Assembly: GCA_028710885.1 (NCBI GenBank)
Contig: JAQTTG010000005.1
Span: 1,483 to 65,482, forward strand
DNA from: Sulfuricurvum sp.
GTDB lineage: Bacteria; Campylobacterota; Campylobacteria; Campylobacterales; Sulfurimonadaceae
Reading direction: 5' to 3'
DNA: 64,000 nucleotides
The notes beneath the pieces were generated by a model, which saw nothing but the letters and a program-made list of their open reading frames with translations, did not search any database and was not told the DNA's origin. Both the position numbers and the translations under genes were made by a program. This document shows positions 1 to 3,446 of the stretch, in pieces. The stretch's first letter is position 1, and each line of letters starts with the position of its first letter.

Positions 1-305
1 TAAGTTGCTTTACGCGTAATCTCTGGCATGTTTGGGGCTGATATAACCGTGTTTGCCAGTACTAAAGCAGTGTTTCCTGATTCTAGTACCTCAATGCCTC
101 TTTGACTGACCTGTAAACCATTTTTAAAATAAACTGCAATAGCTTCAAATGCTTTTCTTATCGCATCTTTACCTACTGCATTCCGTCCTGGTTCAATAAC
201 TAGTATTGCGTCGTCAGTATATATGTCAATGAGAGTGTCGAAATTTTCTTCAACGATTGCTCTATCAGCTTTTTTAATTTGTTTAATTACTTCGTGTTGT
301 TCCAA
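1..305 (-). CDS. YybH/DUF4440 (SnoaL/NTF2-like) protein, 3' end outside window
   Basis: Not in ORF track. Hand translation from TTG at 305, with AAGGA RBS upstream: MEQHEVIKQIKKADRAIVEENFDTLIDIYTDDAILVIEPGRNAVGKDAIRKAF...; the D..Y.DDA.L and G..AIR pattern is typical of the family. Confidence 0.75.
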   Translation of the reverse strand, partial: MEQHEVIKQIKKADRAIVEENFDTLIDIYTDDAILVIEPGRNAVGKDAIRKAFEAIAVYFKNGLQVSQRGIEVLESGNTALVLANTVISAPNMPEITRKAT

Positions 306-795
306 TGCGATTTTCCTTTATTATATTGAGTTCCTCGTTTCCCGAGGGAATTTCAAAAAATGCAGTGACATGATTGAATGTCGCTTCATTATCAAATTGT
401 GCTCGTTCAGGCTGTTCAACTCTTCTCTTGGCGATTTGTGACAAACACTGCTCATCACTCAAATCGAGGAAAATCATTTCGTGTTCGCATCCGATTTCTG
501 TACAAAGTTGTTTAAACCATGATCTTTGGCGTGCAGTATTTGCAGGAAAATCCATAACTACATTTGTACCCGTATTTAAAATCTGTTGCACATGTGATTT
601 CACAAAAGGTTTAATAAGTGTGGAAAATTTTATAAAATCATCAAAAGAGTTTATTTGATTTGGATAATGGGCTGCAAGCCAATCATCTTCTGAGAGTAAC
701 ACCGCATTTTTCTCAATCGATACGGTTTTTGATTTTGTAGTTTTTCCAGCTCCCATTTTTCCACAAAAAAAAGTGAGGGTTCCTTTTTGATTCAT
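283..795 (-). CDS. AAA_33-like P-loop ATP-binding protein
   Basis: Walker A GKMGAGKT, then DDW and VVMDF motifs; start placed at MNQKG (795) after AAAGGA RBS and just downstream of the attC core. Confidence 0.8.
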   Translation of the reverse strand: MNQKGTLTFFCGKMGAGKTTKSKTVSIEKNAVLLSEDDWLAAHYPNQINSFDDFIKFSTLIKPFVKSHVQQILNTGTNVVMDFPANTARQRSWFKQLCTEIGCEHEMIFLDLSDEQCLSQIAKRRVEQPERAQFDNEATFNHVTAFFEIPSGNEELNIIKENRIGTTRSN

Positions 796-810
796 TAATG
801 TTCCTTTAGT

Positions 811-850
811 GTATAACGTTTGGCATGTCCGCTCGATGGAAGGGTTAGGC
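811..850 (-). repeat. Internally deleted attC site (40 bp), aacA4-like ends
   Basis: Minus strand GCCTAAC-CCTTC-CATCGAGCGGAC-ATG-CCAAAC-GTTATAC: RYYYAAC inverse core, 5-nt spacer, L'' start and GTT core, but the central stem is missing. Confidence 0.75.
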
Positions 851-885
851 AACACCGTTTGTATTGAACGATAAGCCATGCACAC

Positions 886-1230
886 TCATGTTTGCCCTAC
901 CAACATGGGGCGCGGATCGTAGTAGCCACGAACCGACATGATTTGTCCGTCTACGACGCGGATGTGCTCCGCAAACGGAATTGTTCCGAAGGTTGTATCG
1001 ATGTTGAGGAGGGCGACGCAGTGTTCACCATCGACGACGAGACGAATGATTTCGATATGCTTGACGATTCTCGAGAACCGCTCCGTGGCTTCAATGAAGG
1101 CCACCGCACCCTGGTACGTATTCATGGGAAAGACACCAATCACCTCCGGATGAATTGGGAGATTCTTTGGATCGTTTCGACGAACAGCATCGATGTATTT
1201 CTCGACCACGCTAGTTACTTGAGTTCTCAT
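886..1230 (-). CDS. SnoaL-like / NTF2 family protein
   Basis: 114 aa with Y..A, F..P, V.DG.H and DGQI.SVRGYYDP patterns; AAAAGGA RBS; GC-rich relative to its neighbours. Confidence 0.75.
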   Translation of the reverse strand: MRTQVTSVVEKYIDAVRRNDPKNLPIHPEVIGVFPMNTYQGAVAFIEATERFSRIVKHIEIIRLVVDGEHCVALLNIDTTFGTIPFAEHIRVVDGQIMSVRGYYDPRPMLVGQT

Positions 1231-1260
1231 ATGATTCCTTTTTGTTTATTTAATAGCTGT

Positions 1261-1332
1261 ATATAATGTTTAAAATGAGCAATTAAAAAGTCGCCCGCGG
1301 GTTTTTGATTGGTCTCTTTTGGTTTGTTAGAT
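1261..1332 (-). repeat. attC site (72 bp, AT-rich type), core G replaced by A
   Basis: Minus strand ATCTAAC (overlaps stop codon)-AAACC-AAAAGAG-AC-CAATCAAAAA-CCCGCGGGCGAC-TTTTTAATTG-CTCATT-TTAAAC-ATTATAT; GAG/CTC and CAATCAAAAA/TTTTTAATTG pair around an unpaired AC. Confidence 0.7.
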
Positions 1333-1974
1333 CTTCATGATTTGCATATTTGACATTCTTTGCCCATCTGCCCATTGTTCATAAGTTAACATTGTGTTCC
1401 AGCACGCTTCTTTACTCATTTGTTGTATTGGAATAAGGCTTTCAAAATGCTCATGATGCTTAATAAGTTGTCGTGTTTTTATGTCTTTACCCCAGCGAAT
1501 TTTCACTTTGTTGTCTTCAAGAGTATTTTGTTTTTCAGGGACATCTGGAACAAATAAAATGTTTTCTTCACCTTCTGCATTAAATGTTATATCTTTATAA
1601 ATTCCATCTTTAGACCATATAGCATGTCTCTCTAATTCAATATACTTAGGCTTGTTGTACCAAACTTTGTAGCCACATAGTATTTGTCCACCATTTAATT
1701 TAATATATTCTTCTACATTCAAGTCACAACAAGACTGTCTTGACCATGCTTCAGGCTCGATTTCAAGAAAAAAAGGCTCAAGATCACTGATTTTTCTGCA
1801 AATTTCTAATATATCATCATTTATACTTGTTGGAGTTGTCAGCCTCGTGGGATTAAAAAGCTCTTTCAAGCCTTTTTCTATTTCAAATTGACTAAGCTCT
1901 TTTGACTGACTGTTCTTTATTTGGTTTTGTCTTTTTTTCTCAGCCTTTTTTCTTTTATCCCGTTTAGTACTCAT
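1327..1974 (-). CDS. Hypothetical cassette protein with basic N-terminus and possible Cys-His-Asp triad
   Basis: Start placed at MSTKRDK (AAAGGA RBS); motifs CCDLNV...GG...GYKVW...IELERHAIW...KDIT...ILFVPD; stop codon overlaps the attC inverse core. Confidence 0.7.
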   Translation of the reverse strand: MSTKRDKRKKAEKKRQNQIKNSQSKELSQFEIEKGLKELFNPTRLTTPTSINDDILEICRKISDLEPFFLEIEPEAWSRQSCCDLNVEEYIKLNGGQILCGYKVWYNKPKYIELERHAIWSKDGIYKDITFNAEGEENILFVPDVPEKQNTLEDNKVKIRWGKDIKTRQLIKHHEHFESLIPIQQMSKEACWNTMLTYEQWADGQRMSNMQIMKI

Positions 1975-2075
1975 AACTTTTCCTTTATTGTTTAACAATT
2001 TATTCATACCAAAATATACCATTCTGGTAGAAATATCCAACCAAAATTTTGCAAATAGCCATATTTTTAAACATT

Positions 2076-3446
2076 TTACATCGTTTCTCTTAAAAAGACT
2101 TCCGCAAACGCTCCCACCGCACTCTCTATTTCCTCCATCTCAAACCCCCCGAATCCCATCCGTATGGCGTCCCATTCTCCCCCTGAGTAATCCTTGGCAA
2201 AATAGAGCTTGATTCCCGCTTCTTCGGCTCTTTGTCGCAATACGGAGAGGTCGATGTCTGATGCGGGACGGATATTGATCGAGAGACCGCCCCCTTCGCT
2301 AACAATCACTATCGAATCTCCGAGATATTTAATGAGAGATTGTTTCATCAGGTCGTGTTTTTTACGGTTCAGGTTTCGCACCCGTCGCAGATGACGCTCC
2401 CAATGCCCCTCATTCATGAACAGCTCCAGCGTCTTTTGAGTCATGAGGCTGACACGCGAAAAGGTGCCGTGAAAGGAGCGGTATCGATCCATCAGATGAC
2501 GAGGGAGTACGATATATCCGACGCGCAAAGCTGGCGAAAGGGCTTTTGCAAAGGTGCCGATGTAGATGACCCGCTCATTACTGTCGAGTCCTTGGAGCGA
2601 GGGGATAGGGCGGGAGCGATAGGTGAGTTCGCTGTCGTAGTCGTCTTCGATGATGTAGCCCTCATTCTCCTTTGCCCAGTTGAGAAGCCGTAGACGGTTT
2701 GCGACGGGCATTGCCGCACCTGTGGGGTACTGGTGCGAGGGGGTGATGTAGACTACGTGGGCACCGGAGGCACTTAGTTCATCGATTTTCAAACCGTTTT
2801 CATCGACTCCGATAGGGGTGATGTCGTAGTGATGGTGGGTGAAAACTTTTCGGGCGATATGGTAGCCGGGATGCTCGATAGCAAAATGTGGATGGGTCGG
2901 ACGGAGAATATCGGCGATTATCCCCATCGCATCGATAAATGCCCCCGTAACAATAATCTCCGATGCGTCGCACCGTACGCCTCGCAGTTCGGTGAGATAA
3001 CGCGCGATTTCGGTTCGTAGTCCAAATTCCCCTTGCGGATCCGGATACCCCCCCATATCGAGGGTTTTATCGATGGCACGGTTAAACAGCCGCTTCCAGA
3101 GTTTGAGAGGAAACACCTCTTTGGAGAGGCGGACGGGGTAAAAGTTGTAGCGGTAGGTGATGGCGGGTGTGTCGGCTGACTCTATCGTCGCAGAGTCACC
3201 AAGTACAATGAAATCGGCGTCCGCGACGTAGTAGCCGCTTTTGGGACGGCTCTCGATATACCCCTCGGCATAGAGTTGATTGTATGCCGATTCGACGGTG
3301 TTTTTGCTGATGCGGTACTCTTGGGAGATTTTGCGAATCGAGGGGAGTTTGCTCCCGATGGCAAGAGTAGTCGTAATGTCGTGTTTGAGTGCTTCGTAGA
3401 GCTGGATGTGCAGAGGAGTTTCGGATGCGGCGTCGAGGAGATACAT
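2076..3446 (-). CDS. MocR/GabR family regulator (GntR HTH + PLP aminotransferase-like domain)
   Basis: LPSIR...ISKNTVESAY HTH; YITPSHQYPTG, IIEDDYDSE and GTFAKALSPALRVGY motifs. Confidence 0.95.
   Translation of the reverse strand: MYLLDAASETPLHIQLYEALKHDITTTLAIGSKLPSIRKISQEYRISKNTVESAYNQLYAEGYIESRPKSGYYVADADFIVLGDSATIESADTPAITYRYNFYPVRLSKEVFPLKLWKRLFNRAIDKTLDMGGYPDPQGEFGLRTEIARYLTELRGVRCDASEIIVTGAFIDAMGIIADILRPTHPHFAIEHPGYHIARKVFTHHHYDITPIGVDENGLKIDELSASGAHVVYITPSHQYPTGAAMPVANRLRLLNWAKENEGYIIEDDYDSELTYRSRPIPSLQGLDSNERVIYIGTFAKALSPALRVGYIVLPRHLMDRYRSFHGTFSRVSLMTQKTLELFMNEGHWERHLRRVRNLNRKKHDLMKQSLIKYLGDSIVIVSEGGGLSINIRPASDIDLSVLRQRAEEAGIKLYFAKDYSGGEWDAIRMGFGGFEMEEIESAVGAFAEVFLRETM

What the first reader, a model, noticed from the sequence alone, without database searches (positions are those of the whole stretch)
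811..850. Internally deleted attC with ends matching the clinical aacA4-type attC
Seen (minus strand): GCCTAACCCTTCCATCGAGCGGAC joined directly to ATGCCAAACGTTATAC, 40 bp in total. From memory, the aac(6')-Ib/aacA4 attC begins GCCTAACCCTTCCATCGAG and ends CATGTCAAACGTTAG, so both ends match closely while the central stem is gone. It follows the GC-rich SnoaL gene. Inference: a cassette from the beta/gammaproteobacterial (class 1-type) pool entered an environmental Campylobacterota array and was then fixed by attC deletion, which would be cross-phylum cassette traffic.
Basis: partly seen in the sequence, partly recalled or inferred. Interest (0 to 1): 0.7.

Follow-up and report, generated by a model that had tools for sequence, protein, structure and literature searches.

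The report
Deleted attC scar on imported cassette
A 40-base stretch in a Sulfuricurvum chromosome is what remains of a 78-base integron recombination site after a 38-base deletion. It marks a small gene imported from the betaproteobacterial cassette pool that can no longer be cut out, which is a clear but not unprecedented case of cross-phylum gene traffic.

Summary
Window 850..811 (minus strand) reads GCCTAACCCTTCCATCGAGCGGACATGCCAAACGTTATAC. Its ends match the clinical aacA4 attC, which I verified on plasmid pTR2 rather than from memory.

A better reference exists. The same SnoaL cassette (91% aa, 95% nt) sits as the first cassette of a complete integron in a Sphaerotilus MAG, with an intact 78-bp attC. 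The window's site equals that attC minus 38 bp. The deletion lies between TGCCAAA and TGTCAAA, with a CAAA microhomology. It removes the L' box and the whole stem: folding energy drops from -33 to -1.2 kcal/mol.

The gene is foreign to its host:
- GC is 0.52 against 0.39 for the genome.
- It occurs in 3 of 66 genomes of the genus.
- It nests inside a betaproteobacterial and soil cassette clade.
- Its dS to the betaproteobacterial copy is 0.08, while neighbouring host genes differ by dS 0.7-3 between the same lineages.

The host array is a decayed chromosomal integron. A ~1.1-kb deletion removed intI, which a congeneric MAG still has. That MAG also carries a clinical-type aadA1 as its first cassette. 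All four attCs of this array are defective.

This is a new member of known kinds: fused cassette, CALIN, cross-taxon cassette transfer.

The parts
811..850 (-). 40-bp remnant of a 78-bp attC. R'' GCCTAAC 850..844; spacer CCTTC 843..839; L'' CATCGAG 838..832; deletion joint inside CAAA 822..819; R' GTTATAC 817..811, with the canonical crossover between G817 and T816. The L' box and the whole stem are missing.
   Evidence: Sequence. Comparison with the intact site of the same cassette in L023/L162. Bottom-strand fold -1.2 kcal/mol (z +1.0) against -33 kcal/mol (z -8.1) for the intact site.
817..1266 (-). SnoaL gene cassette. It runs from T1266 (after the crossover base of the upstream attC) to G817. 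The 5' end TTATATACAGC... is shared with the copies in L019, L020 and L022.
   Evidence: Alignment A1. Boundaries.
886..1230 (-). ORF of 114 aa: a SnoaL_2 / NTF2-like protein with GC about 0.52, intact and under purifying selection (dN/dS 0.16-0.5 among copies).
   Evidence: Pfam PF12680, E 4.5e-6. 263 homologues. dN/dS.
1261..1332 (-). AT-rich, host-type attC of cassette 1 (72 bp). Its crossover base is mutated, so R' reads ATTATAT with A at 1267. Other metagenomes and relatives have G there.
   Evidence: G at 1267 in runs X2, X4 and X5. 94% identical over 66 nt to a site on Aliarcobacter cryaerophilus plasmid pCNAC48.
1327..1974 (-). ORF of cassette 1 (215 aa, no Pfam match). Its stop codon lies inside the R'' box of its attC.
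1990..2101 (-). Remnant of the intI-attI spacer and attI. The crossover lies between G1996 and T1995 (AATAAATTG|TTAAAC). The region is homologous to L020 1398..1556. Its upstream end now encodes the last residues of the MocR-type regulator.
2076..3446 (-). MocR-type (GntR + aminotransferase) regulator: the conserved chromosomal neighbour of the integron. Its 3' end is a chimera made by the ~1.1-kb deletion that removed intI.
   Evidence: Pfam. 82% identity to L022. Junction.
283..795 (-). AAA_33 / zeta-toxin-like P-loop kinase ORF, the next cassette. It starts 16 nt after the attC remnant. Its orthologue follows the same 40-bp remnant in L021 but is far more diverged (dS 0.91).
1..305 (-). DUF4440 / SnoaL_3 ORF. 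It overlaps the kinase stop by 23 nt with no attC between them, and it runs off the window. Its degenerate 51-bp attC lies at contig C29 1403..1353.

Best explanation
Window 850..811 is the scar of an internally deleted attC. A promoterless SnoaL/NTF2-like gene cassette, native to the GC-rich cassette pool of betaproteobacterial integrons, carried a 78-bp attC of the same family as the aacA4 and dfrB9 attCs. The sedentary chromosomal integron of a Sulfuricurvum lineage, which sits next to a MocR-type regulator gene, captured this cassette. Capture by the integrase is inferred. A 38-bp deletion then removed everything between two near-identical direct repeats: TGCCAAA in the 5' arm and TGTCAAA in the L'-R' spacer, with 4 bp of perfect microhomology (CAAA). 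The repeats flank a very stable hairpin, so slipped-strand mispairing or hairpin bypass during replication is the inferred mechanism. The remnant keeps R'', L'' and R' but has no L' and no stem. It therefore cannot fold into the bottom-strand hairpin that integron integrases bind. As a result the SnoaL gene is welded to the downstream kinase cassette, making a fused cassette. In this genome the whole array is inert: intI was removed by a ~1.1-kb deletion, and the other three attCs are also damaged. What is shown: the homology, the deletion end-points, the loss of folding, the foreign origin and the loss of intI. What is inferred: the slippage mechanism, loss of recombination activity, and whether the deletion was selected or neutral.
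For: Intact reference: L023 (Sphaerotilus MAG) and L162 carry the same cassette followed by GCCTAACCCTTCCATCGAGCGGACGTGCCAAAGGCCGCTTCGCGCCCTTTGGCCCGCCGCTCATGTCAAACGTTAGGC. The window matches 37 of its 40 bases to the two ends of that site. Folding: -33 kcal/mol (z -8.1) intact against -1.2 (z +1.0) for the window. Family: the aacA4 (pTR2), dfrB9 (Comamonas class 1 integron) and Methylibium plasmid attCs share GCCTAACCCTTCCATCGAG...CTCATGTCAAACGTTA. Foreign origin rests on five results. Gene GC is 0.52 against 0.39 for the genome. The gene is in 3 of 66 genomes of the genus. The exact 19-mer is in 1 of 401 Campylobacterota genomes, the window's own. In the tree, the Campylobacterota copies sit in a 100/99 clade with Sphaerotilus and Methylophilus, inside a betaproteobacterial and soil cassette clade, while Acidobacteriota homologues have no attC. 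SnoaL dS is 0.065-0.11 between Campylobacterota copies and 0.077 to Sphaerotilus, against 0.91 (kinase), 0.75 (MocR) and 0.73-3.1 (flank gene) for host genes in the same genome pairs. The donor setting is a real integron: in the Sphaerotilus MAG, and in L146, SnoaL lies next to an intI (451 bits in the Sphaerotilus MAG). The recipient is a real integron: congeneric MAG L020 has an intact intI (419 bits against a cut-off of 265), attI, then aadA1, an AT-rich cassette and SnoaL. Loss of intI here: there is no TIGR02249 hit above 60 bits in a 100%-complete genome, and the window equals L020 minus about 283..1403. Precedent: fused cassettes formed by partial attC loss are documented, and a truncated GES-1 attC was shown not to be an IntI1 substrate (PMC4670013, PMC8876359).
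Against: No recombination assay exists for this 40-bp site or for the Sulfuricurvum integrase. One truncated aadA1 attC has been reported to remain excisable (cited in PMC4670013). The same 38-bp deletion is present in L021, whose neighbouring genes are far more diverged than SnoaL. So either the deletion recurred independently or the cassette spread after the deletion; the second option would sit badly with complete inactivity. The 5' UTR of the Campylobacterota version (38 nt, AT-rich) differs from the betaproteobacterial one (85 nt), and this is unexplained. Most comparison genomes are MAGs. The contrast in 19-mer counts between phyla is weak (0 of 400 other Campylobacterota genomes against 3 of 400 in the Sphaerotilus class).
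Confidence: 0.85

Rival explanations
1. The deletion is one symptom of neutral erosion of an integron that had already lost its integrase. It was not an event that was selected because it fixed the SnoaL gene.
For: All four attCs of the array are defective. The upstream attC has ATT in place of GTT at the crossover. The two downstream sites are short and fold at only -3.5 and -1.0 kcal/mol. The kinase and DUF4440 ORFs overlap with no attC between them. intI is deleted. Related arrays show further attC losses (L020, L021 cassette 1, L022, L152).
Against: SnoaL is kept intact, with dN/dS 0.16-0.5, in every Campylobacterota context seen, and no Campylobacterota copy retains an intact attC. That pattern is also what selection for retention would give. 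The order of intI loss and attC deletion is unknown. L020 still has intI, yet its SnoaL attC is already truncated.
Confidence: 0.5
2. The 40-bp site is still a usable recombination site. The cassette spread among Sulfuricurvum lineages after the deletion, carried by its mini-attC.
For: The identical deletion and an identical R' context (GTTATACAC) occur in the window and in L021, although SnoaL dS is 0.065 and the adjacent kinase dS is 0.91. In the tree, the window is closer to L019 and L020 than to L021. A single deletion event would therefore have to be ancestral to all of them.
Against: There is no L' box and no stem, and the fold is no better than shuffled sequence. Identity past the crossover extends 8 nt (TTATACAC). 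The rest of the L021 spacer aligns as an indel in the orthologous kinase 5' UTR. This fits insertion upstream of the same old cassette followed by a recurrent, microhomology-guided deletion. A comparable truncated attC was inactive in vivo.
Confidence: 0.07
3. The transfer went the other way: a Campylobacterota cassette entered betaproteobacterial integrons.
For: Sequence similarity alone does not give a direction.
Against: The deleted and truncated attC states are derived and cannot regenerate the 78-bp palindrome. Gene GC (0.50-0.55) fits the betaproteobacterial hosts (0.5-0.6), not the 0.39-0.43 of the Campylobacterota hosts. Deeper relatives at 61-78% identity are all betaproteobacterial, soil or Acidobacteriota. 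The attC family is shared with other cassettes in the Sphaerotilus MAG (3 sites) and other genomes of that class.
Confidence: 0.03
4. The feature is an assembly or binning artefact, or a chance resemblance.
For: The genome is probably a MAG from a landfill metagenome.
Against: The array lies inside a 260-kb contig with genus-typical genes on both sides. Independent Logan contigs reproduce it, including one from a different study. The chance expectation for the motif is 0.00. The only other GCCTAACCCTTCC in the genome lies inside a coding region, matches just 13 nt, and is not an attC.
Confidence: 0.02

Closest known systems
Fused gene cassettes of class 1 integrons formed by partial attC loss (e.g. 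blaGES-1/aacA4, blaOXA-10/aadA1, aadA1/blaOXA-9 of Tn1331)
   Same: An internal or partial attC deletion leaves both ORFs intact and welds two cassettes together. The hairpin-forming part is lost. In the blaGES-1/aacA4 case the truncated site was not an integrase substrate (PMC4670013, PMC8876359).
   Different: This one is in a sedentary chromosomal array of an environmental Campylobacterota genome, not a clinical class 1 integron. The genes are not resistance genes, and the array has also lost its integrase. The deletion end-points (TGYCAAA repeats) could be defined here because the intact parent site was found.
attC of the aacA4 / aac(6')-Ib cassette, and the related dfrB9 attC
   Same: Identical R''-spacer-L'' (GCCTAACCCTTCCATCGAG), and in the intact parent site an identical L'-spacer-R' (CTCATGTCAAACGTTA). 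65 of the 70 aacA4 bases align identically to the 78-bp parent.
   Different: The central stems differ, and the cassette gene is unrelated. The window's site lacks L' and the stem altogether.
[quoted passage not shown] 2016, as summarised in PMC8618304)
   Same: An array of cassettes with attC-like sites and no intI in the genome. It arose by one of the proposed routes, deletion of intI.
   Different: The deletion that removed intI can be reconstructed here against a congeneric genome that still has it. The attCs are themselves decaying.
Cross-species cassette transfer between integrons (Ghaly et al. 2021, PMC8352920; 2024, PMC11089894)
   Same: Near-identical cassettes appear in unrelated hosts, and the attC type betrays a foreign source.
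   Different: The transfer is between phyla (Pseudomonadota to Campylobacterota), into an array whose own attCs are AT-rich and structurally different. The imported attC did not survive intact in any recipient copy seen.

Membership tests
attC (integron cassette recombination site) | R'' core RYYYAAC at the 5' end, directly after a promoterless ORF | tested here: met
   GCCTAAC at 850..844, 35 nt after the SnoaL stop.
attC (integron cassette recombination site) | R' core GTTRRRY at the 3' end, complementary to R'' | tested here: inconclusive
   GTTATAC at 817..811 has GTT, but T at the second R position and 2 mismatches to the complement of R''. The last six bases belong to the next cassette, so this alone is not disqualifying.
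attC (integron cassette recombination site) | L''/L' inverted repeats with extrahelical bases, folding the bottom strand into a hairpin | tested here: not met
   L'' (CATCGAG) is present and L' (CTCATG) is deleted. Minimum free energy is -1.2 kcal/mol with z +1.0, and 173 of 200 shuffles fold as well. The intact parent gives -33 kcal/mol, z -8.1.
attC (integron cassette recombination site) | Recombined by an integron integrase | not testable with these tools
   Needs an attC x attI assay. Literature on a comparable truncated site found no activity.
Complete integron | intI gene (TIGR02249) adjacent to attI and the array | tested here: not met
   The best hit in the whole genome is 60 bits against a cut-off of 265. 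The congeneric L020 has one at 419 bits at the same locus.
CALIN | Two or more attC sites in an array, with no intI nearby | tested here: met
   Four attC-derived sites in series on one strand between the MocR gene and the conserved flank gene. All are degenerate, so an automated attC model might call fewer.
Fused gene cassette | Two complete ORFs in series with the first attC partly or wholly lost, the unit bounded by other attCs | tested here: met
   SnoaL (1230..886), the 40-bp remnant, then the kinase (795..283). The parent attC is known.
SnoaL_2 / NTF2-like superfamily (the cassette's protein) | Pfam PF12680 match above the gathering score | tested here: met
   27.6 bits against a cut-off of 27, E 4.5e-6, residues 9-98. 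This is marginal, but homologues carry the same precomputed domain. Biochemical function is unknown.

The most novel reading that the evidence does not exclude
The GC-rich foreign attC hairpin is intrinsically unstable in these AT-rich hosts. The identical 38-bp deletion arose independently in separate Sulfuricurvum-type lineages that each captured the cassette at attI. Cross-phylum cassettes would then be converted almost automatically into permanent genes: a one-way ratchet from the mobile pool into the chromosome. Consistent observations: no Campylobacterota copy (six structural contexts) keeps an intact site, whereas several betaproteobacterial copies do. SnoaL is also about ten times less diverged than the genes next to it.
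Probability: 0.25. Interest if true: 0.6.

Novelty: new member of a known kind. Interest (0 to 1): 0.45.

Why it matters
It gives a fully reconstructed example, with parent site, deletion end-points and donor and recipient integrons, of how a mobile cassette crosses a phylum boundary and becomes a fixed chromosomal gene. Together with the clinical-type aadA1 cassette found first in line in a congeneric Sulfuricurvum integron, it shows that chromosomal integrons of environmental Campylobacterota from landfill, wastewater and river habitats draw on the same cassette pool as class 1 integrons. That matters for tracing where resistance cassettes go and come from. It also places attCs of the aacA4 family in betaproteobacterial chromosomal integrons. 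This is a lead on the unassigned origin of that widespread resistance cassette.

Tried and rejected
- A second GCCTAACCCTTCC in the genome (contig C27) lies inside a coding region and is a chance 13-mer, not an attC.
- Searching runs with the L020 array returned only isolates that carry aadA, so it said nothing about the Sulfuricurvum integron.
- Counting the exact 19-mer in 401 Campylobacterota genomes against 401 genomes of the Sphaerotilus class gave 1 (the window's own) against 4 (including the centre). The direction is as expected, but this is too sparse to carry weight.
- I considered integrase-mediated recombination as the origin of the 40-mer. The joint lies in CAAA upstream of the G|TT crossover, so it is not a canonical product.
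- I considered homologous recombination as the route of spread between the window's lineage and L021. The high-identity tract has abrupt ends next to non-homologous DNA, which does not favour it, but it is not excluded.
- I could not decide whether the deletion happened once or recurrently.
- No paper in the held library links Sulfuricurvum with integron cassettes in any informative way.

Full report
**1. The observation**

The minus strand of window 850..811 reads GCCTAACCCTTCCATCGAGCGGACATGCCAAACGTTATAC. It lies 35 nt after the stop of a 114-aa SnoaL_2 ORF (1230..886) and 16 nt before the start of an AAA_33/zeta-like kinase ORF (795..283).

The motif GCCTAACCCTTCCATCGAG-N(0-30)-CAAACGTTA occurs once in the window, against 0.00 expected from shuffles. 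GC rises to 0.50-0.54 over the SnoaL gene, in a genome of 0.39.

A distant BLAST of 780-1300 against plasmids matched more than 3,300 records at window 855..827. These were mostly the 3' end of aac(6')-Ib. Read from plasmid pTR2, the aacA4 attC is GCCTAACCCTTCCATCGAGGGGACGTCCAAGGGCTGGCGCCCTTGGCCGCCCTCATGTCAAACGTTA.

The dfrB9 attC of a Comamonas class 1 integron and a site on a Methylibium plasmid belong to the same family.

**2. The parent site**

Homologues of the SnoaL protein are abundant: 263 hits, the best at 97% identity. Fetching their DNA gave the decisive comparison.

In a Sphaerotilus MAG (L023; 91% aa, 95% nt) and a metagenome contig (L162), the same gene and the same 3' UTR are followed by an intact 78-bp attC:

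GCCTAACCCTTCCATCGAGCGGACGTGCCAAA|GGCCGCTTCGCGCCCTTTGGCCCGCCGCTCATGTCAAA|CGTTAGGC

The window's 40-mer is this site without the 38 bases between the bars. It also has one G>A change (GACGTG to GACATG) and the next cassette's TTATAC after the crossover G.

The deleted block is flanked by TGCCAAA and TGTCAAA, so the joint falls in 4 bp of perfect microhomology. The deletion removes the inner stem, the loop and the whole L' box.

As single-stranded DNA, the bottom strand of the intact site folds at -33 kcal/mol (z -8.1). The window's folds at -1.2 kcal/mol (z +1.0), no better than shuffles. Direct repeats flanking a strong hairpin are the classic substrate for slipped-strand deletion. This mechanism is inferred, not shown.

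**3. Is it real DNA?**

A Logan contig of the landfill run that holds the window at 100% covers 500-902 with no difference. A riverine metagenome from another study has a 168-nt contig across 700-867 with one difference. The array lies inside a 260-kb contig with genus-typical genes on both sides.

**4. The cassette is foreign to the host**

- The genome is congeneric with MAGs labelled Sulfuricurvum.
- SnoaL occurs in only 3 of 66 genomes of the genus.
- The exact 19-mer attC start occurs in 1 of 401 Campylobacterota genomes sampled, the window's own.
- Relatives at 73-91% identity come from Sphaerotilus, Methylophilus, Sulfuriferula, Nitrosomonadales, Thiobacillaceae, other betaproteobacterial MAGs and soil metagenomes. 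Most are followed by GC-rich GCCTAAC...GTTAGGC attCs, several of them the same subtype (L025, L055, L072, L079).
- Acidobacteriota homologues at 61-68% identity have no attC.
- In a maximum-likelihood tree the Campylobacterota copies sit with Sphaerotilus and Methylophilus in a 100/99 clade, nested in the betaproteobacterial and soil cassette clade.
- In the Sphaerotilus MAG, and in L146, the cassette lies next to an intI.
- Synonymous divergence settles the timing. SnoaL dS is 0.065 (window against L021) and 0.077 (window against Sphaerotilus). Host genes in the same genome pairs give 0.91 (kinase), 0.75 (MocR-type gene) and 0.73-3.1 (flank gene). The cassette therefore arrived, or spread, long after these lineages diverged.
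- dN/dS of 0.16-0.5 indicates a functional gene.

**5. The recipient is a decayed chromosomal integron**

On the minus strand the window shows, in order:

- a MocR-type regulator gene (3446..2076);
- an attI remnant with the crossover at G1996|T1995;
- cassette 1 (ORF 1974..1327) with a 72-bp AT-rich attC (1332..1261), whose crossover base is A instead of G;
- the SnoaL cassette (1266..817);
- the kinase ORF, then a DUF4440 ORF that overlaps it with no attC between them.

Beyond the window's left edge lie two short, poorly folding attC-like sites and a conserved flank gene.

The genome has no integron integrase: the best TIGR02249 hit is 60 bits against a cut-off of 265, at 100% completeness. 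A congeneric MAG (L020) has, at the same locus, an intact intI (419 bits) divergent from attI.

Aligning the two shows that the window equals L020 minus about 1.1 kb (L020 ~283..1403). That deletion fused the MocR-type ORF to the intI-attI spacer and gave it a new C-terminus. L022 and L152 share this junction. L021 lost intI in a different way. This array is therefore a CALIN formed by deletion of intI.

**6. Other fates of the same attC**

| Copy | State of the SnoaL attC |
|---|---|
| L021 (Campylobacteraceae MAG) | The identical 38-bp deletion, followed by the orthologous kinase after an extra ~105 nt |
| L020 | Cut after GCCTAACCCTTCC and followed by a hairpin repeat |
| L152-L159 | Cut after GCCTAACCCTA by the same repeat family, which also replaces the cassette's 5' boundary |
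| L022 | Whole site and part of the 3' UTR lost |
| L019 | Reads GCCTAACCCTT\|ATAC at a contig end |

No Campylobacterota copy has an intact site, whereas several betaproteobacterial copies do. Truncated ones also exist there (L024, L011/L051, L027).

I cannot tell whether the window and L021 share one deletion event or acquired it independently. The microhomology makes recurrence plausible. The tree places the window closer to L019 and L020 than to L021, so a single event would have to be ancestral to all of them.

**7. Comparison with what is known**

Fused cassettes produced by partial or total attC loss are documented in class 1 integrons. The truncated GES-1 attC was shown by inverse PCR not to be an integrase substrate, although one truncated aadA1 site was reported to be excisable (PMC4670013, PMC8876359). 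CALINs and their origin by intI loss are described (PMC8618304). Cross-species cassette transfer, and the use of attC type to infer source taxa, are established (PMC8352920, PMC11089894).

What is new here is the instance. A betaproteobacterial-type cassette sits in a Campylobacterota sedentary array, with the parent site, the deletion end-points and both integron contexts recovered. aacA4 does not appear in the main text of Ghaly et al. 2021, including its table of cassettes with a predicted source taxon. The betaproteobacterial homes of its attC family seen here are a lead, not a proof.

**8. Verdict**

The feature is a new member of known kinds. Interest is moderate (0.45): it is a clean natural history rather than a new mechanism.

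The open question with the most upside is whether foreign GC-rich attCs are systematically and recurrently destroyed in these hosts.

Noticed in passing
L020 330-2414 (NZ_CALDDG010000119.1, Sulfuricurvum MAG, same genus as the window's genome): A non-class-1 chromosomal integron with an intact intI has, as its first cassette at attI, an aadA1 streptomycin/spectinomycin resistance cassette. It is 99.5% identical over 869 nt to clinical plasmid copies and carries its own 60-bp attC, with canonical G|TT junctions on both sides. This shows flow of a clinical-pool cassette into an environmental Campylobacterota integron.
   Followed up: partly
window 2076-2101: The last ~8 codons of the MocR-type regulator are encoded by what is intI-attI spacer DNA in L020. 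The ~1.1-kb deletion that removed intI created a chimeric C-terminus (VFLRETM*). L022 and L152 share this junction.
   Followed up: yes
L152-L159 around the SnoaL gene; own genome C13 47.4-49.0 kb and 321.7-325.7 kb; C29 176243-176320: A REP-like palindromic repeat (CTCGTTCCCACTCTCCTGAGTGGGAATG, often paired with CTCCCAAGCTNGAGCTTGGGAGCGAG) replaces both cassette boundaries of SnoaL in some Sulfuricurvum arrays. It occurs about 8 times in this genome, in two clusters spaced 0.5-1.7 kb apart. Its nature (MITE, REP or another recombination site) is unknown.
   Followed up: partly
window 1264-1329 and L004 3972-4037: The AT-rich attC upstream of SnoaL is 94% identical over 66 nt to a site on Aliarcobacter cryaerophilus plasmid pCNAC48, next to an IS21 element. 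Sulfuricurvum arrays and Aliarcobacter plasmids therefore appear to share an attC family.
   Followed up: no
L001, L002, L003, L023, L025, L055, L072: The attC family of the aacA4 and dfrB9 resistance cassettes (GCCTAACCCTTCCATCGAG...CTCATGTCAAACGTTAGGC) is carried by non-resistance cassettes in betaproteobacterial integrons (Sphaerotilus, Nitrosomonadales, a Methylibium plasmid). This is a possible pointer to the source taxon of aacA4, which Ghaly et al. 2021 did not assign.
   Followed up: partly
L011 / L051 (JGI metagenomes): In a GC-0.53 organism, the SnoaL gene sits between valS and a Y1-transposase (RAYT-like) gene. It keeps only the 5' half of the attC, which is followed by tandem GGAAAAGGGGTCAAGTCTGCTGTTGACTAAT repeats. 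This is another independent fossilisation of the cassette.
   Followed up: no
window 283-305: The kinase ORF and the DUF4440/SnoaL_3 ORF overlap by 23 nt with no attC between them. In L021 the kinase is followed directly by the flank gene. This is probably a second fused cassette pair in the same array.
   Followed up: no
window 840-1330 in run X5 (wastewater, library labelled RNA-Seq cDNA): Contigs of SnoaL at 95-99% identity are present at word depths of 40-240 in wastewater RNA-Seq libraries. This suggests the gene is transcribed somewhere in such communities. The host is not resolved, and DNA carry-over is possible.
   Followed up: no
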